IMG/VR virus record: IMGVR_UViG_3300007177_000055
Coordinates: 32,001 to 96,000 of that record
DNA: 64,000 bases
Origin: a virus
Direction: 5' to 3' (one strand)
Each line of letters opens with the position of its first letter. Position 1 is the first letter of the stretch. Made by a program: the position numbers and the translations under genes. Under the pieces are notes generated by a model. That model did no database searches. It saw only the letters and a list, made by a program, of their open reading frames with translations, and had not been told where the DNA came from. Positions 1-13,512 of the stretch are shown here, piece after piece.

Positions 1-282
1 AGCCTTTGTCTGTTATGCCATAAATGTAGCTTAAGAGACTTTTTAGCTGTTTGCACACCTAACAATTATTTTTACGTATTACTAACTTGCTCTTCCGTAG
101 AAACCTTCTTGGGATCAACAGTATGTAAGTCTTTATACGAAGACTTTGTTAGGTTTTGGCCTGAGCTAAATAACTTGCACTGCGAAAACCTAGAAACAGC
201 CCAGTATTTTATAAACAAGTACATAGAATGGCAACACGCTAGTTGGGTTGCTTCAAAAAGAGGCTGCCTAGAATTTGGTTAA
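1..282 (+). CDS. partial hypothetical protein (5' end outside window)
   Basis: Frame 1 is open from base 1 to TAA at 280-282 (manual translation); no recognisable motif. Confidence 0.5.
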   Translation, partial: SLCLLCHKCSLRDFLAVCTPNNYFYVLLTCSSVETFLGSTVCKSLYEDFVRFWPELNNLHCENLETAQYFINKYIEWQHASWVASKRGCLEFG

Positions 283-990: not shown

Positions 991-1008
991 TTAAAACAAA
1001 GTATAGCG
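991..1008 (+). promoter_or_regulatory. repeated phage upstream element AAACAAAGTA, copy 1
   Basis: TTAAAACAAAGTATAGCG, intergenic, about 70 nt before ORF 1081; 17/18 identical to 9983-10000. Confidence 0.55.
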
Positions 1009-1080
1009 TCTGGTAAAGTTAGGTGAACTGGCTTTAGCAAGGCCGGTATGCCATAATTTACTTACTCTTGGAGCAAACTC

Positions 1081-1515
1081 ATGTCCACCAATTCCATTAC
1101 ACCTGAAATGAACAACCCCCGTTTGGAAGCTCTTACTCGCTTGAGCTCCCAACTAACTACAACTGGTTTTGAGAAAGTAACCGTTAACTTTAGCGGCCAA
1201 AACGCCAATTCAGTACTAGAAGAACCTAAGTTCTTTCGTACTGGCTTAGACGAAGCAGTAACCGCTGCTGATGTTGCAACTGTATTTAACGGTACAACGG
1301 TAGACACCTCAGTCATTATAGAAGCAGTTAGCCGAGCACTTGAAAATAGCTATCCGTTCTGGTCCGACCTTGTTGGTGCGTACGGTACGGTCAGCTACTA
1401 CCCCGGCCAGTTTGGGATGTACATTAAGATCCAAAGAATGATCATTACTACCCATGAAAGTAACCTTACCCGTAACACCCTGGAGTCACTGTATCCTAAA
1501 GTAAAAGCTGCCTGA
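1081..1515 (+). CDS. hypothetical protein, weak resemblance to DUF6878 family
   Basis: GFEKVTVNFSG...YPFWSDLVGAYGTV resembles the family pattern as recalled; not verified. Confidence 0.45.
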   Translation: MSTNSITPEMNNPRLEALTRLSSQLTTTGFEKVTVNFSGQNANSVLEEPKFFRTGLDEAVTAADVATVFNGTTVDTSVIIEAVSRALENSYPFWSDLVGAYGTVSYYPGQFGMYIKIQRMIITTHESNLTRNTLESLYPKVKAA

Positions 1516-1535
1516 TTAGACCCAACCCACGTTAT

Positions 1536-1556
1536 AGGGGGTTGCACCCCCTTTTT
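1536..1556 (+). terminator. intrinsic terminator-like hairpin
   Basis: AGGGGGT-TGC-ACCCCCT followed by TTTT, after the stop of 1081-1515. Confidence 0.7.
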
Positions 1557-1558
1557 CT

Positions 1559-1912
1559 ATGCCAAACCTCTTTGAGACCTCAGCTTCCTTTGAAGAGGAA
1601 GACTTTACAGATGAAGCCGTCGCAGTCAGCTCTTTTGATGGCACAAGGCAAATCTCCTTAAAATATGGAACCGAAACTGTATACGTAGACCTTACGCTGT
1701 CTACCTACGCTGGCAAGACTTTGGCCCAAATCGCTGCTCTGCGAGCAGACGACTTAGGTTTTAGTCGCGATGCTTCTCGACTAAACTACCGCCGTGGGGG
1801 AGAGTCTATCGAACCCTCATTTATCCCTAAACCTGGGATGTCTTTTGTTCTTAGCACTTCTGTTGATACTAAGGGCCAGCCAGATAGTAAAGGCGGTTTT
1901 CAGTCAGTCTGA
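1559..1912 (+). CDS. putative ubiquitin-like (beta-grasp) protein with C-terminal DTKG/DSKG motifs
   Basis: Pattern beta-beta (QISLKYG, TVYVDL), helix (GKTLAQIAALRADDLG), beta (LNYRRGG), final strand (PKPGMSFVLS) ending ...DTKG, like PRTRC protein C-type Ubls; E1/E2/JAB genes are present in the window. Confidence 0.65.
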   Translation: MPNLFETSASFEEEDFTDEAVAVSSFDGTRQISLKYGTETVYVDLTLSTYAGKTLAQIAALRADDLGFSRDASRLNYRRGGESIEPSFIPKPGMSFVLSTSVDTKGQPDSKGGFQSV

Positions 1913-1980
1913 AATAAAACCAAGCATACTTAGCACTCTGGTAACACAGAGTGCTATTGTATGTTTACTTGTCTAAAAAT

Positions 1981-3759
1981 ATGGCTAGGCTTTCTAGGGA
2001 CAGTTTTGGAGCTTATCTAAAAGAAATCGGTAGGTTTGAGCTCCTCAGTAAAAAAGACGAACAAGAACTTGGAAGCCTAGTTCAGCTGGGTGAACAACTT
2101 TTAAGCATCAAAAAACAAAATTCGGGTATCCAGACTCTAGAAGAACACGCTAATGCTGCCGGACTAACAACAAAAGAGTTACAACGCACTCTAATAAAAG
2201 CTAAAAGAGCTAAAGATAAATTGATCAAGCACAACTTACGATTAGTAGTTTCTATAGCTAAAAGATACACCAATCGTGGCGTGTCTATGGTTGATTTAGT
2301 TCAAGAAGGCACTATAGGTCTTAACCGGGCAGTCGAAAAGTTTGACCCTAAAAAGGGGTTTAAGTTCTCTACCTACGCTTGTGTACCTTTAACTACTGAG
2401 ATACTTACTCAACGAGGCTGGTTAAAGTTCCACGAACTTGAACCTGGTGATCAAACCATTGGATACGATCAAGGCGTAAGTAAGTGGACACGCATTTTAG
2501 GAAGCAAAGTTTATGGCAAAGCTCCTCTAGTAACCTTTGGAGACTCCAAGTGGTCAGTAGAGTGTACTGGCCAACATAAATGGATTGTGAATGACGAAGG
2601 TACTACAAAGCTAATACCACTAAAAGAAATTGACTTTAAAAAAGACTCTACCAGGTTAGTAACTTCTGCTAGTTTTGTCGGTGGAGATAACCCAATGACT
2701 GCAAAGGAAGCTGCTTGGATAGCCGAAGTAATTTCAGTCAGCAAACCTAAAGAAGATCAACCGGACAATGCCAGCCTATCTGATCTAGTACTAAGTCTAA
2801 AACCAGCGGCACGTAAGGCCTGGTTTGAAGTGTGGTGTAACTCAAGCAGACCTCGTTCTGTTGAGGAAACGCAAGCTTTAGCACTTTGTGCTTTTTTAGA
2901 AGGGCACTCTAAAGTTAGAGTCAACGAACAAACAGTAGAGTGGACAGTAGAGTTTAACGGTCCGGGCTCTCTTTTTATAGAAGATGTTGAAAACGTTAAC
3001 CAGAAAACTTACTCTCAAATTTTCAGCCCTCCTACCATAAAAGCTTGTGGCAGCGCACCTGTTTGGTGTCCTAATACTGAACTAGGTACCTGGACTGCTA
3101 GGACTCCGGAAGGCAGAATATTCTTAACAGGTAACACTTGGTGGGTAAGACAAGGCATTACCCGAGCAGTAGCTTTACATTCCAGAACTATACGTTTACC
3201 AGTACATATCTTTGAAAGACTTAATAAAATAAAAAAGGCAACTCGAACACTGTCACAACAAAACGGTAGACAACCAAGCATCTTTGAAATTGCCTCTTTT
3301 ATAGAAGAACCTATAAATAAAGTGCTAAAGTTAATGCAGTACTCGAAAGTAATTAGGTCGACAGACTCCTTGTTGAGCGATTCTACAGGAACCAGTTGCT
3401 TAAGAGACTTTTTAATAGACGAGATTACCCCAACACCTGAAGAAGTAGTCGAGCGAGAATTAAACGCCGTTTATATCAAAAAACTCCTTAAAGGGTTAAC
3501 AGAACAAGAAGCTTACATAATCAAAAAGCGTTATGGTATAGACCTAGAGTATCCCGTACCTCTAAAAGAAATAGGAGTAGCCCTAGATATTACTACTGAA
3601 CGAGTAAGACAAATAGAACGCAGGGCATTAGAAAAGTTAAAAGAAACCCATTTGTTTCATGAAAAACATCACCCTAAACTTAAGCGCAATACCTTAATGG
3701 GAAAAAGCGGAGTTACATACAAACCAACTGAGGTTACAAAACTTGAAGTAGACTCATAA
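1981..3759 (+). CDS. rpoD: RpoD/SigA-family sigma70 factor (cyanobacterial type, no region 1.1), intein-containing
   Basis: YLKEIGR (1.2), NLRLVVSIAKRY (2.1), DLVQEGTIGL (2.2), KFSTYA/TWWVRQGI (2.3-2.4), RTIRLPVH (3.0), ERVRQIE (4.2); ATG 1981 preferred over GTG 1951. Confidence 0.93.
   Translation: MARLSRDSFGAYLKEIGRFELLSKKDEQELGSLVQLGEQLLSIKKQNSGIQTLEEHANAAGLTTKELQRTLIKAKRAKDKLIKHNLRLVVSIAKRYTNRGVSMVDLVQEGTIGLNRAVEKFDPKKGFKFSTYACVPLTTEILTQRGWLKFHELEPGDQTIGYDQGVSKWTRILGSKVYGKAPLVTFGDSKWSVECTGQHKWIVNDEGTTKLIPLKEIDFKKDSTRLVTSASFVGGDNPMTAKEAAWIAEVISVSKPKEDQPDNASLSDLVLSLKPAARKAWFEVWCNSSRPRSVEETQALALCAFLEGHSKVRVNEQTVEWTVEFNGPGSLFIEDVENVNQKTYSQIFSPPTIKACGSAPVWCPNTELGTWTARTPEGRIFLTGNTWWVRQGITRAVALHSRTIRLPVHIFERLNKIKKATRTLSQQNGRQPSIFEIASFIEEPINKVLKLMQYSKVIRSTDSLLSDSTGTSCLRDFLIDEITPTPEEVVERELNAVYIKKLLKGLTEQEAYIIKKRYGIDLEYPVPLKEIGVALDITTERVRQIERRALEKLKETHLFHEKHHPKLKRNTLMGKSGVTYKPTEVTKLEVDS
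2380..3135 (+). mobile_element. intein (252 aa, endonuclease degenerate) in the sigma factor
   Basis: Starts CVPLTTEILTQRGW, block B ECTGQHKW, ends VWCPNTELGTW...FLTGN before Thr; removal restores FSTYA-TWWVRQ. Confidence 0.92.
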
Positions 3760-3762
3760 GTA

Positions 3763-4095
3763 GTGGGCTGTTGTATGTATCATCATCCTTTAGCTACTTA
3801 TGGCTCTTCTCAAGAAGAAGTAGAAGAATGTAATGCTTGGGGTTTTGCTTCAGGGTTAACTCATTCATACTTTGAATCGGAAGACCCTTTTGCAGGATTT
3901 TCTCTGCTAGCTCTTTTAAAAGACTCATCAGCTCCAGGTTCTCACTATAGAGCGTTAATCAGAGACTACAAAAAGTTTAAGACTACAGCTGTCCTTAGGG
4001 AAATACAGTGCTTACTAGCAACGGCTATAGAAGAAAGTGAAAATGGCGCAGATTTAGAAATTTTTTCATTACCACAAGACGTAGATGAATTTTGA
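3763..4095 (+). CDS. hypothetical protein
   Basis: ORF directly downstream of sigma; no motif. Confidence 0.55.
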   Translation: MGCCMYHHPLATYGSSQEEVEECNAWGFASGLTHSYFESEDPFAGFSLLALLKDSSAPGSHYRALIRDYKKFKTTAVLREIQCLLATAIEESENGADLEIFSLPQDVDEF

Positions 4096-4159
4096 TTAAG
4101 TCTTAAGTCTTAAAGCTTAACTAACTACAGATACACTGATAATATACGCTTGCACAACC

Positions 4160-4432
4160 GTGGCAGACGAGCCTAAAGAAGTTGCAGTAACAGGCGAGTT
4201 AAAGTATCTTGCCTACGGCATAGGCATAATTGTTGTGTCTACAGCTCTAATAGGTTGCTTTTCGTTTGCATGGCAAGTCTCTCTGCAACTTAATTCAGCT
4301 ACTCAAGAAATAAAATCTTTAACAGCTACGGTAAACGAACTCAAAACAGAACTAAATACGCTCAAAAAAGAACACGAATCTAACAAAGAACAAACTCAGG
4401 AACGCTTGAATGAACTACGTTTACGCCCCTAA
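4160..4432 (+). CDS. single-TM protein with coiled-coil tail
   Basis: Hydrophobic LAYGIGIIVVSTALIGCFSFAW followed by heptad-rich region. Confidence 0.6.
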   Translation: MADEPKEVAVTGELKYLAYGIGIIVVSTALIGCFSFAWQVSLQLNSATQEIKSLTATVNELKTELNTLKKEHESNKEQTQERLNELRLRP

Positions 4433-9575: not shown

Positions 9576-9986
9576 GTGTATACGTTAGCAAAGCGTATGA
9601 ATGATGGGCTCGGCTTAACTCTTTCTGACTACTTAGACAAGAAAAAAGTCAGGTATCAACATCGTCAAGCTATCTTTACTGCATTTGACCACAAATGTGC
9701 TTACTGCGGTCAACCAGCTCAAAGTCTAGATCACGTCAAGCCTAAGCACAGAGGTGGCCAAAATCTTAGCTCTAACTTAGTACCAGCATGTTTAGCCTGC
9801 AATCAATCAAAAGGTTCTACTAACTTGTGGGATTTCTTCCACGAAGAACAATCTTTCTACTCAAAAACAAGGGCAGATTTCTTAAAAAAATGGATTTCAG
9901 GAGAAATCCATTCACTTCACGTACTTACTACACAGGAACTAGGTCTAGATACTAGCTGCTATTCGTTTAATGTAAGCTTTACTTAA
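9576..9986 (+). CDS. HNH endonuclease
   Basis: CAYCG...LDHVKPKHRGG...NLVPACLACNQSKG. Confidence 0.92.
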   Translation: MYTLAKRMNDGLGLTLSDYLDKKKVRYQHRQAIFTAFDHKCAYCGQPAQSLDHVKPKHRGGQNLSSNLVPACLACNQSKGSTNLWDFFHEEQSFYSKTRADFLKKWISGEIHSLHVLTTQELGLDTSCYSFNVSFT

Positions 9987-10024: not shown

Positions 10025-11650
10025 ATGAGTACAACTGAGAGTAAGACTGCAGCAATAGAACCTTTTGTTAGGACTAAAAGTGGGTGTTTACAGCTAATAA
10101 CTTCGGAATATTGGGGGAGCTGGTATAGAGCTATCGACGATCCTAAAGGTAAAGATATAGATACGAAAGACCTCTTAAGTAGGTTCTGGATAAAACCCGA
10201 CTTTGACAAAGTTCCACTAGTAGACTTACGTCGAATCGTAACTTTTTACCGTAAGTACATCTCCAACCTAGCAGCTAACTCTACAATTGACACTAACGAA
10301 GTACAAGTCTTACTGCTGCGGTCTGAAACAAATGTTAAAGTCTGGAAAATCCTAGTACCTAAGCAAATTATTACACAAGCTGCTGTTGAAGCAGTAACTC
10401 ATCCATGCTGTGATCTAGAAACTGGCGAAGATCACGATATATTCCCACCAGCAGGTTGGGTGCACGCCGGCAGCAGCCATTCTCACAACACGATGTCTGC
10501 TTTTTTTAGTCCCAAAGACGATCGAGGCGAACTGACCGTACCAGGTTTGCACTTTGTTATTGGATCCATTACGTCTGACAGCTACGACATCAAAGCGTCT
10601 ATAGTAATAAATCGCGCACGTTTCTTAGTACCACCTACTCACGTACTAGAAACTGGCGATATCCCGGTGGCAATAAACCAAGCTTTGGTAGCCAGGTTTA
10701 AAGATTCTGAAACAGTACCCTATGCAACAGAAGTAGAAACCTATGTTAAAAGGGCTCAAGACGTGCGTAACTCAGTAAAGGCTGAAAGCTTTACCTACCA
10801 CACTGCTAGCCCTTATTCATACCCTAATTTGCGTCGTCGTACTCGCAAACACTCTTTTAGAAACGCCCCTTACAGTTGGACTCCTGGCATTAACCCCAAG
10901 CTAGACGATTTCTCTGATTTACTAGAAAACTTTAACGAAATAAGTCAATACCAACCTAGCAAAACAGTAACTGTTACTGGCAGGCCGCAACTGTTAAGCA
11001 GCGTAGCGTTTGACTTAGCAGAAATACTGAAGAGTCTTAAGCATACTTACCCAGAAATAGTATTTGATGCTTTAGTAAAACACGATTATCTTTCAGCTGA
11101 AGAAACCCCCCAAGCCTCAGGTGAGGCTACAGAAACTGAAAAACCACTACTCTCAGATTTTACAGAAGACGCTGACTGGTGCGCTGACTGGTCCGCAGAT
11201 CCTTTAGACACCAGTTTTATACTGCTAACTTCTTTACTAAGCGACCTTGAACAAGAAGCTGTGGCCAAAGACATAGTTTACGCTATGTTAGTTGCTCACG
11301 GGCTCCTTAATCTCCACTACTTCTCCATTGATCCATATGTTGTAGACCTTGGAGAATATCTAGTTGAAGGTAAAATTATTGACTCGGTATTTCCCGAAAA
11401 AGAGAACCTAATCAAACTAGCTAAAGCCTTAGATTCGCTTTTAGTTGACGAATACGCCCGAGTAGTTTGTGGGATTTTGATCAACTTAGATTACCTAAGC
11501 ATTGAGGATCTTTGTGACTACTTGCCTGAAAGCGAAATTCGGCGAGGCATCCTAGAAGCCAACGAATACACTTTAACTTTTACGGATTCTAATCCTGAAC
11601 TAAGCGCCGCACCTAAATTACCAGAACCTGACTGGTCTGACTTTGTTTAA
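10025..11650 (+). CDS. JAB/JAMM metallopeptidase (PRTRC protein A-like) with long acidic C-terminal extension
   Basis: Upstream Glu (TNEVQV), VPKQ, then HSHNTMSAFFSPKDD (HxH-x7-S-x2-D) and GLHFVIG. Confidence 0.88.
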   Translation: MSTTESKTAAIEPFVRTKSGCLQLITSEYWGSWYRAIDDPKGKDIDTKDLLSRFWIKPDFDKVPLVDLRRIVTFYRKYISNLAANSTIDTNEVQVLLLRSETNVKVWKILVPKQIITQAAVEAVTHPCCDLETGEDHDIFPPAGWVHAGSSHSHNTMSAFFSPKDDRGELTVPGLHFVIGSITSDSYDIKASIVINRARFLVPPTHVLETGDIPVAINQALVARFKDSETVPYATEVETYVKRAQDVRNSVKAESFTYHTASPYSYPNLRRRTRKHSFRNAPYSWTPGINPKLDDFSDLLENFNEISQYQPSKTVTVTGRPQLLSSVAFDLAEILKSLKHTYPEIVFDALVKHDYLSAEETPQASGEATETEKPLLSDFTEDADWCADWSADPLDTSFILLTSLLSDLEQEAVAKDIVYAMLVAHGLLNLHYFSIDPYVVDLGEYLVEGKIIDSVFPEKENLIKLAKALDSLLVDEYARVVCGILINLDYLSIEDLCDYLPESEIRRGILEANEYTLTFTDSNPELSAAPKLPEPDWSDFV

Positions 11651-11653
11651 CTA

Positions 11654-12712
11654 ATGGAAAACCTAGTACTTGCTACAGAGCAAAATACACCACCCACTAA
11701 AAGAACAGCATGTAGAGGTAAACACAAGTTTATTCCGTTTCCGTCAGGAACTACAAAAGCTATAGTCTCCTATGATTCTTACGAACCTGACGAAATCTAC
11801 ACAGGATATACCACTAAAATATTTACTGTTACTGAGCCTCGAACAGCTCGAATAACACTAGCTACAAGAGAAGACTCTGCTAAATGGCTAGAAGCATTTA
11901 GTGCTAAAATCTGTAAGTCTTGTAGTAAACTGGCAGTTCCTGCCAAGATACTGGAGCAAGCTTATACTGCAGATCCAAGTTTAATAACACTAAACTTGGA
12001 TCAAATGCAAAGTTTCCTAGCCGAAAAAATTGAGGGTGCATGTTTAAGCGTTACCAACCATGTAAAAGGAGTATGCCCAGCCGGGCATGACATAGCTTCT
12101 GGACTAGAAGAGCAAAAAGTAGCTGTGATGAAAGTCCCAGCGTTATGCTTGATGTCTACGTATACTAGCAGAACAAGCAGTAGTCACTTTGCTTTTGATC
12201 AAGGACGAAAGTACAGTCTTTTTGCTTACAAAGATGATAATCAAGTTCCTTATATAAGTCCTTATAGACCAGCTAATGTATACACTAACGGAAATATTTG
12301 TTGGGGTAAGCAACCGTTACCCCAAAATCCTAAACAAGCTTTGGCGGCTTATTGGGGTTCTGGTTTCAATCGTGATTTAGCCTCTCAAGCAGCTAATACT
12401 CTAAAAGGTACCTTAGAAAACTACGAGCAGCTGTCTAGCAACTTTGAGAAGCTAACACTGCATACACTTCAAAACGTCCAGGGCATTAACAAACCTTGTG
12501 TGGGAGTTTATTTAAGCTCTTTTAGTAACTTGTTGTCGGCAGTTCCGTCAGAACTCCACATAAAAGTACGCTCTGAGACTTTTGTATTAGCTTGGGTTCT
12601 GTCTGCAGAACCTGATAGATACTTACTGGAGTTTAAGGAGTTTTTAGTAGAAATGAACGATTTAAACGGTCGTGCAAAAGTAAAAGTTCTTAGTTCATCC
12701 CCAGAAAAATGA
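11654..12712 (+). CDS. prokaryotic E2 ubiquitin-conjugating-like protein (PRTRC protein B / Prok-E2-like)
   Basis: PANVYTNGNICWG...AYWGSGFNRDL with the putative catalytic Cys; lies between JAB and E1. Confidence 0.8.
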   Translation: MENLVLATEQNTPPTKRTACRGKHKFIPFPSGTTKAIVSYDSYEPDEIYTGYTTKIFTVTEPRTARITLATREDSAKWLEAFSAKICKSCSKLAVPAKILEQAYTADPSLITLNLDQMQSFLAEKIEGACLSVTNHVKGVCPAGHDIASGLEEQKVAVMKVPALCLMSTYTSRTSSSHFAFDQGRKYSLFAYKDDNQVPYISPYRPANVYTNGNICWGKQPLPQNPKQALAAYWGSGFNRDLASQAANTLKGTLENYEQLSSNFEKLTLHTLQNVQGINKPCVGVYLSSFSNLLSAVPSELHIKVRSETFVLAWVLSAEPDRYLLEFKEFLVEMNDLNGRAKVKVLSSSPEK

Positions 12713-13512
12713 AATTTGACGCAGTTCACCTTGTAGGTCTAGGTGGTACAGGTTCTTACTTAGCAGCTCCTCTTGCCAAGCTATTGAAGTACCACCAAAA
12801 TGGGACGGAGAACCTCCACTTTTGGGATAAAGATAAACTTGAAGTTAAAAACCTCACCAGACAAGACTTTACTCCAGAGTCTATCGACAAGAATAAAGCT
12901 CAAGAAAAAGCTGCTGAACTAGAAAGCATCAACTCTAATATTAAGGTGCATCAGTCTTGGTTCGTTCCAGACACACTAAATGCATGTTTAAAAGAGGATC
13001 CCAGTGACAACCTGCTAATAATCCTAGCTGTTGACAACGATGCAACCCGGCATCATATCATTGTTGAGCTAGACGGCATGCTTGATCAAGACTTTGTACT
13101 AGTTCTACCTGGTAACGGATACGACACCGGCAACACTTTCTGGTACGGGCGACAAGGCACAGAAACAGCTCCCGTGCACCCTTTTGAAGTGGCTGACAAC
13201 TGGGCAAGACCTCAAGATGGTCTACCAGGAGATTGTGCTTTAGAAGCAGTATCCAGCCCTCAGCTATTAGCTAGCAATTTAGCCCAAGCTCTGGGATCTT
13301 TGTTGTTGGTACAAGGTTTGTTAGAAGATCAGCCTATGCCTTTTAAACTAGACTACTCTGGCCCTGAGTTTAGCATCGTTGCTGAAGGCAGGCCTACGTA
13401 TTTTCCTAGCTTGACACGCCAACCAGAACCTGTTGTTGAGTCAGAGGCAGAAACACAAGACCTACTGCCTGAATCTGTACCTAGCTCTACAACTGTAGAG
13501 CTGTTTTCTTAA
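12709..13512 (+). CDS. ThiF/E1-family adenylyltransferase (ubiquitin-activating-like)
   Basis: VGLGGTGS, DKD.LEVKNLTRQ, NKAQ, AVDN..TR, GNG and GDCA...PQL..N (putative catalytic Cys); ATGA overlap with E2. Confidence 0.92.
   Translation: MKFDAVHLVGLGGTGSYLAAPLAKLLKYHQNGTENLHFWDKDKLEVKNLTRQDFTPESIDKNKAQEKAAELESINSNIKVHQSWFVPDTLNACLKEDPSDNLLIILAVDNDATRHHIIVELDGMLDQDFVLVLPGNGYDTGNTFWYGRQGTETAPVHPFEVADNWARPQDGLPGDCALEAVSSPQLLASNLAQALGSLLLVQGLLEDQPMPFKLDYSGPEFSIVAEGRPTYFPSLTRQPEPVVESEAETQDLLPESVPSSTTVELFS

What the first reader, a model, noticed from the sequence alone, without database searches (positions are those of the whole stretch)
1559..1912. Distant candidate Ubl with a duplicated D[T/S]KG end and cleavable extension
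Seen: a beta-grasp-like pattern ending VDTKG-QP-DSKG-GFQSV, plus an acidic N-terminal arm (FEEEDFTDE). Established: PRTRC-type Ubls end in KG, and JAB proteases mature Ubl precursors by cutting after the terminal Gly. Inference: this is the modifier for the operon 8 kb away, made as a pro-form with two alternative maturation sites. It would be missed by operon-based searches. It lies immediately upstream of the sigma factor gene.
Basis: partly seen in the sequence, partly recalled or inferred. Interest (0 to 1): 0.82.

Follow-up and report, generated by a model that had tools for sequence, protein, structure and literature searches.

The report
Displaced ubiquitin-like tag gene in phage
A small phage gene next to a sigma-factor gene most likely encodes the ubiquitin-like tag used by three tagging enzymes encoded 8 kb away, a four-gene kit that many uncultured large phages carry as one operon.

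Summary
The 117-aa ORF at 1559-1912 (+) is real and under purifying selection (dN/dS 0.17). AlphaFold2 gives a ubiquitin-type beta-grasp for residues 29-106. Foldseek and VIA-align hits are ubiquitin, NEDD8, SUMO and Raf-RBD, with Gly106 falling at ubiquitin Gly76.

No Pfam or NCBIfam model matches the protein, PRTRC_C included.

In an alignment of 21 diverse relatives, the only invariant columns are Lys105 and Gly106. Between 0 and 11 variable residues follow them.

Of 22 viral loci with a close JAB homologue, 20 carry this family upstream on the same strand. Most are arranged Ubl-JAB-E2-E1. The window phage and one relative instead keep the gene beside a sigma-factor gene.

A co-fold with the phage E1 scored ipSAE 0.64, against 0.00 for the best control. 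It places tail residues 99-106 in the adenylation site.

The core reading therefore holds: this is a displaced Ubl precursor. The second DSKG is lineage-specific and looks like an echo rather than a conserved second maturation site. PRTRC membership fails.

This scan has noted other phage Ubl kits on other DNA. I found no paper describing this one. Targets are unknown and there is no biochemistry.

The parts
1559..1912 (+). Gene for the 117-aa ubiquitin-like (Ubl) precursor, stop codon included
   Evidence: ORF. Homologues. dN/dS 0.17. Fold.
1559..1642 (+). Residues 1-28: disordered N-terminal arm with the acidic motif EE[DN]F.D[ED]
   Evidence: pLDDT is 48-49 over residues 1-20. The motif is kept in the window's subfamily. 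It is absent from the JAB-adjacent subfamily, which has MSFF..IR instead.
1643..1876 (+). Residues 29-106: beta-grasp core plus flexible tail, the predicted mature Ubl body
   Evidence: Secondary structure is beta-beta-alpha-beta-beta-beta. VIA-align maps model 29/30..105/106 onto ubiquitin 0/1..76 with Z 7.6-7.8; Raf-RBD gives Z up to 9.2. Foldseek gives E about 4e-4 and TMt 0.6-0.65 to ubiquitin, NEDD8 and SUMO.
1865..1876 (+). D103-T-K-G106: family hallmark and predicted activation and maturation site (cut after Gly106)
   Evidence: K105 and G106 are the only invariant columns in 21 sequences. Residues 99-106 contact the E1 nucleotide loop in the co-fold.
1877..1909 (+). Residues 107-117 (QPDSKGGFQSV): variable C-terminal extension, predicted propeptide
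   Evidence: Relatives carry 0-11 residues after KG. Ten of the 21 operon-linked ORFs end exactly at G.
1883..1894 (+). Second D-S-K-G: a lineage-specific echo of the motif, not conserved
   Evidence: P0002 has DTKS and P0003 has DSKS at this place; other relatives lack it.
1536..1552 (+). Terminator-like hairpin 6 nt before the Ubl start codon
   Evidence: Consensus scan. This is a pattern match only.
1931..1956 (+). Terminator-like hairpin between the Ubl stop codon and the sigma-factor gene
   Evidence: Consensus scan. This is a pattern match only.
10025..11650 (+). JAB/JAMM peptidase (541 aa): predicted Ubl-processing and deconjugating enzyme
   Evidence: Weak hits to Prok-JAB (E 0.0028) and PRTRC_A (E 0.001). 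E92, H152, H154, S162 and D165, plus the N-terminal R16 and W30, are kept in 19 of 21 distinct homologues.
11654..12712 (+). E2-like protein (352 aa) with an N-terminal four-Cys cluster
   Evidence: Prok-E2_D at E 9e-6, 25.9 bits against a cutoff of 25. N208, C216 and W217 are kept in 21 of 21 homologues; C87, C90, C130 and C141 in 20-21 of 21. The AlphaFold2 model failed with pLDDT 31.
12709..13512 (+). ThiF-type E1 (267 aa)
   Evidence: ThiF at E 3e-13. The GxGGxG loop, R51, D109 and C176 are kept in 19 of 19 homologues. The co-fold with the Ubl scored 0.64 against 0.00 for controls.

Best explanation
ORF 1559-1912 encodes the precursor of a ubiquitin-like modifier that belongs to the phage's own JAB-E2-E1 enzymes at 10025-13512.

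Proposed mechanism:
1. The 117-aa protein has a disordered acidic arm (residues 1-28), a ubiquitin-type beta-grasp (29-99) and a flexible tail ending in D-T-K-G106.
2. The 11 residues after Gly106 are removed, most likely by the JAB metallopeptidase.
3. The E1 binds the beta-grasp through the YGTE (36-39) and GFSR (67-70) surfaces. It threads tail residues 99-106 into its adenylation site, adenylates Gly106 and takes it onto Cys176.
4. The tag passes to Cys216 of the E2 and then to lysines of targets that are still unknown.
5. The JAB can also reverse the conjugation.

In most related phages the tag gene is the first gene of the operon. In this phage lineage it has been moved 8 kb (20 kb in G002) and sits just upstream of a sigma-70 gene.

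What is shown in silico: the fold, the invariant KG, the gene linkage, and the E1 docking geometry.

What is inferred: JAB cleavage, the thioester relay, and conjugation to targets.
For: Fold:
- The AlphaFold2 model has beta-beta-alpha-beta-beta-beta topology.
- Foldseek top hits are all ubiquitin or Ubls, at E about 4e-4 and TMt 0.6-0.65.
- VIA-align gives Z 7.6-9.2. Model residues 29..106 align to ubiquitin 0..76 (6nyo_E, 4auq_C), so Gly106 falls at Gly76.
- ESMFold2 folded residues 26-106 independently at pLDDT 91.

Hallmark motif:
- K105 and G106 are the only invariant columns among 21 relatives, and there are no indels between the last strand and KG.
- 13 of 15 sequences in A2 carry D[TS]KG.
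- 21 of 21 operon-linked ORFs end in KG plus 0 residues (10 ORFs), 1 (8 ORFs) or 2 (3 ORFs).

Gene linkage:
- 20 of the 22 viral loci whose JAB matches at E<1e-50 hold a family member upstream on the same strand.
- 17 of the 21 Ubl ORFs lie within 100 bp of, or overlap, the next enzyme gene.
- One of the two exceptions is cut by its contig end (L020). The other is G002, which keeps the gene beside a sigma-factor gene as the window does.
- The family is present in 4 of 4 E1-bearing viral records.
- G001 and G003 have the Ubl and the enzymes but no sigma-70.

Co-fold with the E1:
- The median ipSAE was 0.64 and the best of 3 controls was 0.00. That mark was reached by 58 of 80 solved complexes and by 2 of 110 mismatched pairs.
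- The three runs agree in at least 96% of contacts, and the partner's pLDDT is at least 90.
- Ubl residues 36-39, 67-70 and 99-106 touch E1 residues 10, 12-15, 107-111, 114 and 134-137.
- E1-Ubl complexes have been solved, so this pass may partly reflect likeness to those structures.

Enzymes look active:
- JAB E92, H152, H154, S162 and D165 are kept in 19 of 21 homologues. E2 N208, C216 and W217 are kept in 21 of 21. The E1 Gly loop, R51, D109 and C176 are kept in 19 of 19.

Precedent from papers (passages read):
- BilC pre-processes BilA to expose its C-terminal Gly (PMC10557695).
- 12 BilA homologues carry overhangs of 2-9 aa after the Gly (10.1101/2023.09.04.556158).
Against: - There is no experimental data of any kind.
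- There is no sequence similarity to any curated Ubl family. Pfam and NCBIfam gave 0 relevant hits for 15 of 15 members.
- A PDB profile search gave nothing below E 0.19.
- Z scores of 7.6-9.2 lie in the range where VIA-align's own notes warn that a match may show only a common arrangement. Raf-RBD, which is not a modifier, scores slightly higher than ubiquitin.
- The tail ends K-G, not G-G.
- In this genome the gene is 8 kb from the enzymes and is flanked by terminator-like hairpins, with no clear promoter.
- The E2 assignment is marginal: 25.9 bits against a cutoff of 25, and its structure model failed.
- The co-fold used my own shallow alignments of 13 and 15 rows, so its calibration holds only roughly.
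- Two weaker family hits, P0017 (ends NSKA) and P0019, lack the KG.
Confidence: 0.8

Rival explanations
1. Both KG sites are used. The protein matures alternatively after DTKG106 or after DSKG112 (or G113), giving two modifier forms.
For: The second D-S-K-G-G is present in the window sequence. A degenerate echo D[ST]K[GS] also appears in the two nearest homologues. If the JAB reads [DE]-x-K-G, it could cut there as well.
Against: Of the 36 distinct family sequences seen, the window protein is the only one with a second KG. P0002 reads DTKS and P0003 reads DSKS. The tail length from the last strand to the first KG is fixed, with no indel in 21 sequences. In the co-fold, residues 99-106 already fill the path to the E1 nucleotide loop, so a form ending at G112 would be 6 residues too long.
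Confidence: 0.07
2. It is a ThiS/MoaD-like sulfur carrier. The E1 adenylates it for thiocarboxylate formation, for example for a nucleoside or cofactor thiolation, and there is no protein conjugation.
For: The E1 is a minimal ThiF-type enzyme whose best curated hits include ThiF. The ESM Atlas structure search lists ThiS clusters among the neighbours. Both systems use a beta-grasp with a C-terminal Gly.
Against: An E2-like gene with an invariant Cys (21 of 21) and a JAB gene travel with the Ubl and E1 in 20 of 22 loci. The Pfam ThiS model does not match any of 15 members. The terminus is KG, not GG. I saw no sulfurtransferase gene in the operons listed.
Confidence: 0.06
3. It is a non-conjugated beta-grasp adaptor that works with the adjacent sigma factor, for example as a transcription co-factor. 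On this view its link with the enzymes is incidental in this phage.
For: The gene sits immediately upstream of the sigma-70 gene in the window, in G002 and in L002. Raf-RBD-type interaction domains score as well as ubiquitin in VIA-align.
Against: G001 and G003 carry the family but have no sigma-70 region 2 match. 20 of 22 related loci place the gene at the head of the enzyme operon. The invariant terminal KG and the E1 docking have no explanation under this reading.
Confidence: 0.03
4. The tag is real, but its main role is as a decoy or inhibitor of host Ubl-based defence of the Bil type, not as a modifier of targets chosen by the phage enzymes.
For: Bacterial Bil systems conjugate a Ubl to phage tail proteins (abstract of 10.1101/2023.09.04.556158). 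In the window the operon lies between a tail-fibre gene and a virion structural gene.
Against: The phages carry their own complete enzyme set with intact catalytic residues, which a decoy would not need. Nothing I ran tests this directly.
Confidence: 0.04

Closest known systems
BilABCD (bacterial ISG15-like) anti-phage ubiquitination system: BilA Ubl, BilB E2, BilC JAB DUB, BilD E1
   Same: Both have four parts: a small beta-grasp tag with a C-terminal Gly, a JAB peptidase, a Cys E2 and a ThiF-type E1. Some BilA proteins carry short overhangs of 2-9 aa after the Gly, and BilC trims them. AlphaFold-Multimer also places the BilA tail in the E1 adenylation site, as my co-fold does here.
   Different: This system is encoded by phages, not by host defence islands. 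There is no sequence match between this Ubl and any curated family. The E1 is minimal, at 235-300 aa. The E2 carries an N-terminal four-Cys cluster. The tail ends [DE]-x-K-G. The target and biological role are unknown.
PRTRC cassette and the Iyer et al. 2006 'row 6d' operons (Ubl, JAB with JAB-N, E1, E2)
   Same: All three enzymes, in two separate phage genomes, take PRTRC_A, PRTRC_B and PRTRC_ThiF as their only or near-best NCBIfam hits. The JAB has an N-terminal region with a conserved Arg and Trp, as described for the JAB-N of row 6d (PMC1779556, passages). Both have a small Ubl with a conserved C-terminal Gly.
   Different: All of these hits are far below the curated cutoffs: 17-42 bits against 101-145. 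PRTRC_C does not match. PRTRC ParB and PRTRC_E are absent from 4 of 4 genomes. The E2 has no conserved His after its Cys. The equation of 6d with PRTRC is my own inference.
Eukaryotic ubiquitin, NEDD8 and SUMO precursors
   Same: They share the beta-grasp fold, with the terminal Gly at the same structural position, and a C-terminal extension that must be removed before E1 activation. The latter is stated in the introduction of PMC10557695.
   Different: Sequence identity in the structural alignments is 9-21%. The tail is K-G, not G-G. There is an extra acidic N-terminal arm. The trimming enzyme would be a JAMM metalloprotease encoded alongside.
Lambda/T1 tail assembly protein I (Ubl domain) with the K protein (JAB plus NlpC/P60)
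   Same: This is a phage-encoded beta-grasp with a conserved C-terminal Gly that is associated with a JAB peptidase (PMC1779556).
   Different: That system has no E1 or E2 and is part of tail assembly. Here the full activation and transfer set is present, and the Ubl is free-standing.

Membership tests
Ubiquitin-like protein modifiers (functional class) | Ubiquitin-type beta-grasp fold | tested here: met
   AlphaFold2 topology. Foldseek top hits are ubiquitin, NEDD8, SUMO and ISG15 at E about 4e-4. VIA-align gives Z 7.6-9.2 over residues 29-106. All of these are predictions, not a solved structure.
Ubiquitin-like protein modifiers (functional class) | Conserved Gly at the end of a flexible C-terminal tail, either exposed or followed by a removable extension | tested here: met
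   G106 is invariant in 21 of 21 sequences, with 0-11 residues after it. It aligns with ubiquitin G76.
Ubiquitin-like protein modifiers (functional class) | Dedicated E1 (and E2) encoded with it and able to bind its tail | tested here: met
   Operon linkage in 20 of 22 loci. Co-fold ipSAE of 0.64 against 0.00 for controls, with the tail in the adenylation site. This is in silico only.
Ubiquitin-like protein modifiers (functional class) | Covalent conjugation to target proteins | not testable with these tools
   This needs biochemistry or proteomics.
PRTRC system (protein C = Ubl) | Match to the PRTRC_C model TIGR03738 above its cutoff | tested here: not met
   No hit at E<=10 for 15 of 15 family members. 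No hit at E<=0.1 in the whole 125-kb genome, while the control search found the family in Bacteroides thetaiotaomicron.
PRTRC system (protein C = Ubl) | Enzyme trio passes the PRTRC_A, PRTRC_B and PRTRC_ThiF cutoffs | tested here: not met
   Scores were 18.7, 17.9 and 39.8 bits, against cutoffs of 101.8, 131.45 and 144.75.
PRTRC system (protein C = Ubl) | ParB-related protein and proteins D and E in the cassette | tested here: not met
   PRTRC_parB and PRTRC_E were found in 0 of 4 genomes. PRTRC_D was also found in 0 of 4, but that search rang in no control genome, so it is inconclusive. I recalled the accession numbers; the tool confirmed the family names.
   I could not fetch any PRTRC_C sequence with the tools available.
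Iyer et al. 2006 row 6d operons | JAB with an N-terminal domain bearing a conserved Arg and Trp | tested here: met
   R16 and W30 are kept in 19 of 21 distinct JAB homologues; the other 2 are split fragments. The feature is as worded in PMC1779556. Homology of the two N-terminal domains was not tested.
Iyer et al. 2006 row 6d operons | E2 with an absolutely conserved His C-terminal to the catalytic Cys | tested here: not met
   No His column reaches 85% in 21 E2 homologues. The conserved columns after C216 are W217, G218, P223, N239, D241 and L242.
BilABCD | Sequence membership of the Ubl and enzymes in the Bil families | tested here: inconclusive
   In PADLOC v2.0.0 (2023) only the E1 hit anything, namely the CBASS-type 'E1-E2' models at E 1e-8 or weaker. 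I do not know whether that release holds Bil models.
ThiS/MoaD sulfur carriers | Match to Pfam ThiS (PF02597) and a Gly-Gly terminus | tested here: not met
   No ThiS hit for 15 of 15 members at E<=10. The terminus is Lys-Gly.

The most novel reading that the evidence does not exclude
Large uncultured phages carry their own complete, catalytically intact ubiquitination-like pathway, with a tag ending in an invariant Lys-Gly, a JAMM protease, a Cys E2 with a built-in four-Cys (zinc?) domain, and a minimal E1. They use it during infection to tag host or virion proteins. That would make it a viral counterpart of the host's Bil, Bub and CBASS conjugation defences.

In the window's lineage the tag gene has been uncoupled from the enzyme operon and placed in its own unit next to a phage sigma factor. 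This could put tag supply, rather than enzyme supply, under separate temporal control.
Probability: 0.35. Interest if true: 0.8.

Novelty: new variant of a known kind. Interest (0 to 1): 0.62.

Why it matters
Ubiquitin-like conjugation in bacteria has recently been established as a host defence against phages. That rests on the abstracts and passages of the Bil, Bub and CBASS Cap2/Cap3 papers seen.

Here the same chemistry appears on the phage side. It is a four-gene kit seen in at least 20 viral loci, on viral records of 39 to 371 kb. Its tag belongs to a sequence family that no curated database recognises.

Identifying the displaced tag gene completes the system in this genome. That makes the system testable by cloning four genes. 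It also shows that operon-only searches will call some of these systems 'Ubl-less'.

The invariant Lys-Gly end has a practical consequence, which is inference from protease specificity. Trypsin would leave only a single Gly (+57 Da) on modified lysines. That mass is the same as carbamidomethylation, so standard di-Gly proteomics would miss these conjugates.

Tried and rejected
Searches that found nothing:
- GenBank phages: tblastn with the Ubl and the E2 found no match, and the E1 gave one weak hit. blastn of 1000-4200 gave one irrelevant short hit.
- Plasmids: the E1 gave one weak ThiF hit.
- Prokaryote genome contigs: no relative of the Ubl or the E1. These scans are pattern-limited.
- Viral contigs with the Ubl alignment A1, P0008, P0011 and the window E2: nothing. 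The first E1 alignment (A3) recovered only G001.
- The metagenome scan gave only a 1.8-kb contig.
- A search for fused longer forms of the Ubl found none, which is weak evidence.
- The PDB sequence-profile search with the Ubl gave nothing below E 0.19.
- The ESM Atlas gave only generic beta-grasp neighbours (YukD, TmoB, ThiS, RnfH) at scores of 0.83-0.86, below its 0.9 lead threshold.
- The BFVD fold search gave viral ubiquitins but with large rmsd.

Other dead ends:
- The AlphaFold2 model of the E2 from a 3-row alignment failed, with pLDDT 31, and was not used.
- P0013 and P0014 (1875 and 1158 aa, matched in several stretches) are repeat proteins. I dropped them as spurious after reading them.
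- Sequencing runs: no RNA holder was listed, and the DNA holders had shares of 0.28 or less. I did not lay reads.
- The JAB-Ubl co-fold could not be run because the single complex job went to the E1.
- The 14 remote JAB-E1 loci (L037, L039-L051) have no A2-type Ubl. I left them out of the 22-locus count because their JAB E-values were between 1e-5 and 1.5e-15.

Literature searches:
- Searches found no paper describing a bacteriophage-encoded Ubl-E1-E2-JAB operon.
- The jumbo-phage overview PMC7824862 has no occurrence of ThiF, E1-like or Ubl.
- Supplements were closed, so tables of Bil homologues that might include phage records were not seen.
Full report
**What is there.**
The window is bases 32001-96000 of a 125-kb viral record that CheckV estimates to be 72% complete. 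Pfam, PHROGs, NCBIfam and PADLOC give no hit for it.

Downstream at 10025-13512 lie three coupled genes:
- a JAB-like protein of 541 aa (Prok-JAB, E 0.0028);
- an E2-like protein of 352 aa (Prok-E2_D, E 9e-6, just over its cutoff);
- a ThiF-type E1 of 267 aa (E 3e-13).

The gene immediately after the ORF is a sigma-70 factor interrupted by an insert, which the first-stage notes call an intein.

**It is a real gene and a small family.**
The word-indexed search found 8 proteins at E<=0.01 among 17 candidates, the query included. The exhaustive search of 1.84 billion representatives found 12 at E<=0.001. Ten of those are small proteins of 93-153 aa. The other two are long repeat proteins that I dropped after reading them. 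dN/dS against the 89%-identical homologue is 0.17. No relative turned up among GenBank phages, plasmids or one genome per prokaryote species, within the limits of those searches.

**Fold.**
AlphaFold2 on an 8-row alignment gave mean pLDDT 72, and 74-90 across residues 31-100. The order of elements is strand 31-36, strand 39-44, helix 55-66, then strands 76-79, 82-84 and 95-99. The N-terminal 28 residues and everything after residue 102 are disordered.

Foldseek against the PDB returned ubiquitin, NEDD8, SUMO, ISG15 and bacterial and archaeal ubiquitins as the top hits, at E about 4e-4 and TM 0.6-0.65 by target. VIA-align gave Z 7.6-9.2. Raf-RBD, also a ubiquitin-like beta-grasp, scored highest. 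Many ubiquitin chains aligned model residues 29/30..105/106 to ubiquitin 0/1..76. Gly106 therefore sits where ubiquitin's Gly76 sits. These Z values are in the range the tool itself flags as possibly a 'common arrangement', so the fold alone would not carry the case.

**The KG end.**
In the 15-sequence alignment, 13 sequences have D[TS]KG and two weak members lack it. I then added the operon-linked relatives found later. After that, K105 and G106 are the only invariant columns in 21 sequences that share 21-62% identity with the window protein. There is no indel between the last strand and KG.

What follows the Gly varies:
- Nothing follows in P0007, P0008 and 10 of the 21 operon-linked ORFs.
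- One or two residues follow in the other 11 operon-linked ORFs.
- Three to eleven residues follow in most of the window's near relatives.
- The window protein has the longest extension seen.

This is the pattern of a Ubl precursor. Passages read in the Bil papers describe the same thing: overhangs of 2-9 aa in 12 BilA homologues, and trimming by the JAB protein BilC.

The second DSKG is a different matter. Its nearest relatives read DTKS and DSKS, and all others lack it. It is a lineage-specific echo, not a conserved site.

**Gene linkage.**
A related, syntenic phage (G001) has the homologue P0012, which ends DSKGY, directly upstream of E2, JAB and E1. A second phage (G003) has a 175-aa member ending ...SEAKG-stop that overlaps the start of JAB-E2-E1. 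The family was present in all 4 of 4 E1-bearing viral records tested.

A scan of viral contigs with the JAB alignment returned 36 loci. Twenty-two of them have a JAB matching at E<1e-50. In 20 of those 22, an ORF matching the Ubl profile (E 4e-6 to 3e-33) lies upstream on the same strand. That is 21 ORFs and 17 distinct sequences. Seventeen of the 21 lie within 100 bp of, or overlap, the next enzyme gene.

The two exceptions are L020, whose contig begins at the JAB, and L016, which is G002. In G002 the Ubl lies 20 kb away, directly upstream of an intein-bearing sigma-70, just as in the window. The short contig L002 shows the same Ubl-sigma pairing. G001 and G003 have no sigma-70 at all. The family therefore tracks the enzymes, not the sigma factor.

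Several of the 22 loci are near-duplicates (L023-L026, L028/L029, L017/L018), so the number of independent observations is nearer 15.

**Docking.**
I co-folded the E1 (13-row alignment) with Ubl 26-106 (15-row alignment). The runs scored ipSAE 0.61, 0.67 and 0.64, against 0.00 for the best of three controls. That mark was reached by 58 of 80 solved complexes and by 2 of 110 mismatched pairs. The runs agree in at least 96% of contacts, and the partner's pLDDT is at least 90.

The interface uses exactly the family's conserved patches: YGTE 36-39, GFSR 67-70 and tail 99-106. These sit against E1 residues 10 and 12-15 (the GxGGxG loop), 107-111 (the AVDND aspartate), 114 and 134-137. Because ThiF-ThiS, MoeB-MoaD and E1-Ub complexes are solved, the pass may partly be from memory. 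It shows likeness to those complexes, not proof of binding.

**Enzymes.**
Across the close loci:
- JAB E92, H152, H154, S162 and D165 are kept in 19 of 21 distinct sequences. The other two are split fragments.
- E2 N208, C216 and W217 are kept in 21 of 21.
- The E1 Gly loop, R51, D109 and C176 are kept in 19 of 19.

The E2 also has four conserved cysteines upstream of its core. My attempt to model the E2 failed with pLDDT 31.

**Relation to known systems.**
In two genomes each, the three enzymes take PRTRC_A, PRTRC_B and PRTRC_ThiF as their only or near-best NCBIfam hits, but at 17-42 bits against cutoffs of 101-145. PRTRC_C does not match the Ubl family or the genome. PRTRC ParB and PRTRC_E are absent from all four genomes. 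The PRTRC_D search was uninformative.

The JAB's N-terminal conserved Arg and Trp fit the 'JAB-N' of row 6d in Iyer et al. 2006. The E2 lacks the conserved His described there. This is therefore a distant, phage-borne relative of that operon type, not a PRTRC cassette.

Functionally the nearest characterised analogue is BilABCD.

**Novelty and limits.**
Eight literature searches found no description of a bacteriophage-encoded Ubl-E1-E2-JAB operon. The jumbo-phage overview does not mention one. Supplements were closed.

Earlier notes of this scan report other phage Ubl kits on other DNA, with different tags such as one ending Gly-Gly, and some coupled to retrons. The general phenomenon has therefore been seen by this scan before, but those notes are unchecked.

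The targets, the timing and the biological role are all unknown. The tail-fibre and virion genes that flank the operon in the window are only a hint.

Noticed in passing
window 1951-3759; L002 1174-1845; L013 1864-3318: The sigma-70 gene after the Ubl carries a large insert, which the first-stage note calls an intein, between ...FSTYA and TWWVRQG. This holds in the window and in G002. The homologue on L002 reads FSTYATWWVRQG without any insert, so both insert-bearing and insert-free alleles exist.
   Followed up: partly
window 9576-9986: An HNH endonuclease gene (Pfam HNH, E 9e-11) sits directly upstream of the JAB gene, at the position the Ubl gene occupies in most relatives. A mobile-element-linked rearrangement may have displaced the Ubl.
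   Followed up: no
L016 6007-6489 and 7599-8753; L036 5974-6399 and 6640-7221: In G002 and in L036 the JAB gene is in two pieces, separated by 1.1 kb and 0.24 kb. This could be an insertion, an intein or intron, or a frameshift. I did not examine it.
   Followed up: no
window 11654-12712 (E2 residues 87, 90, 130, 141): Four cysteines (C-x2-C ... C-x10-C) N-terminal to the E2 core are kept in 20-21 of 21 homologues. They may form a zinc-binding module, and conceivably a built-in target-recognition or E3-like domain.
   Followed up: partly
L021 2139-2621 and 3769-4095: One 371-kb viral record carries two Ubl paralogues with identical C-terminal halves (both end ...MSHEQKG) upstream of E2-JAB-E1.
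   Followed up: no
L017 3171-4733 and 5954-6898; L018 4407-5972 and 7181-8125: Two loci have two E2-like genes (about 520 aa and 314 aa) flanking the JAB. G001 and L021 have only the long form, placed before the JAB.
   Followed up: no
L003 2765-4867; G000 contig 493-2673: In G001 the Ubl operon follows an rIIA-like gene (phrog_612, E 1e-55). Its homologue in the window's phage lies 31 kb upstream of the Ubl, so about 30 kb separates genes that are neighbours in G001.
   Followed up: partly
L037, L039-L051: Fourteen further viral loci have a distant JAB next to an E1 of 284-542 aa, most with no E2 hit (L043 and L050 have one). None has an ORF matching this Ubl profile. They are probably other phage Ubl-system families.
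   Followed up: no
window 1536-1552 and 1931-1956: Terminator-like hairpins bracket the Ubl ORF. The scan found 6 such sites in 900-2300, against 1.1 expected from shuffles. This suggests a separately regulated small transcription unit.
   Followed up: no
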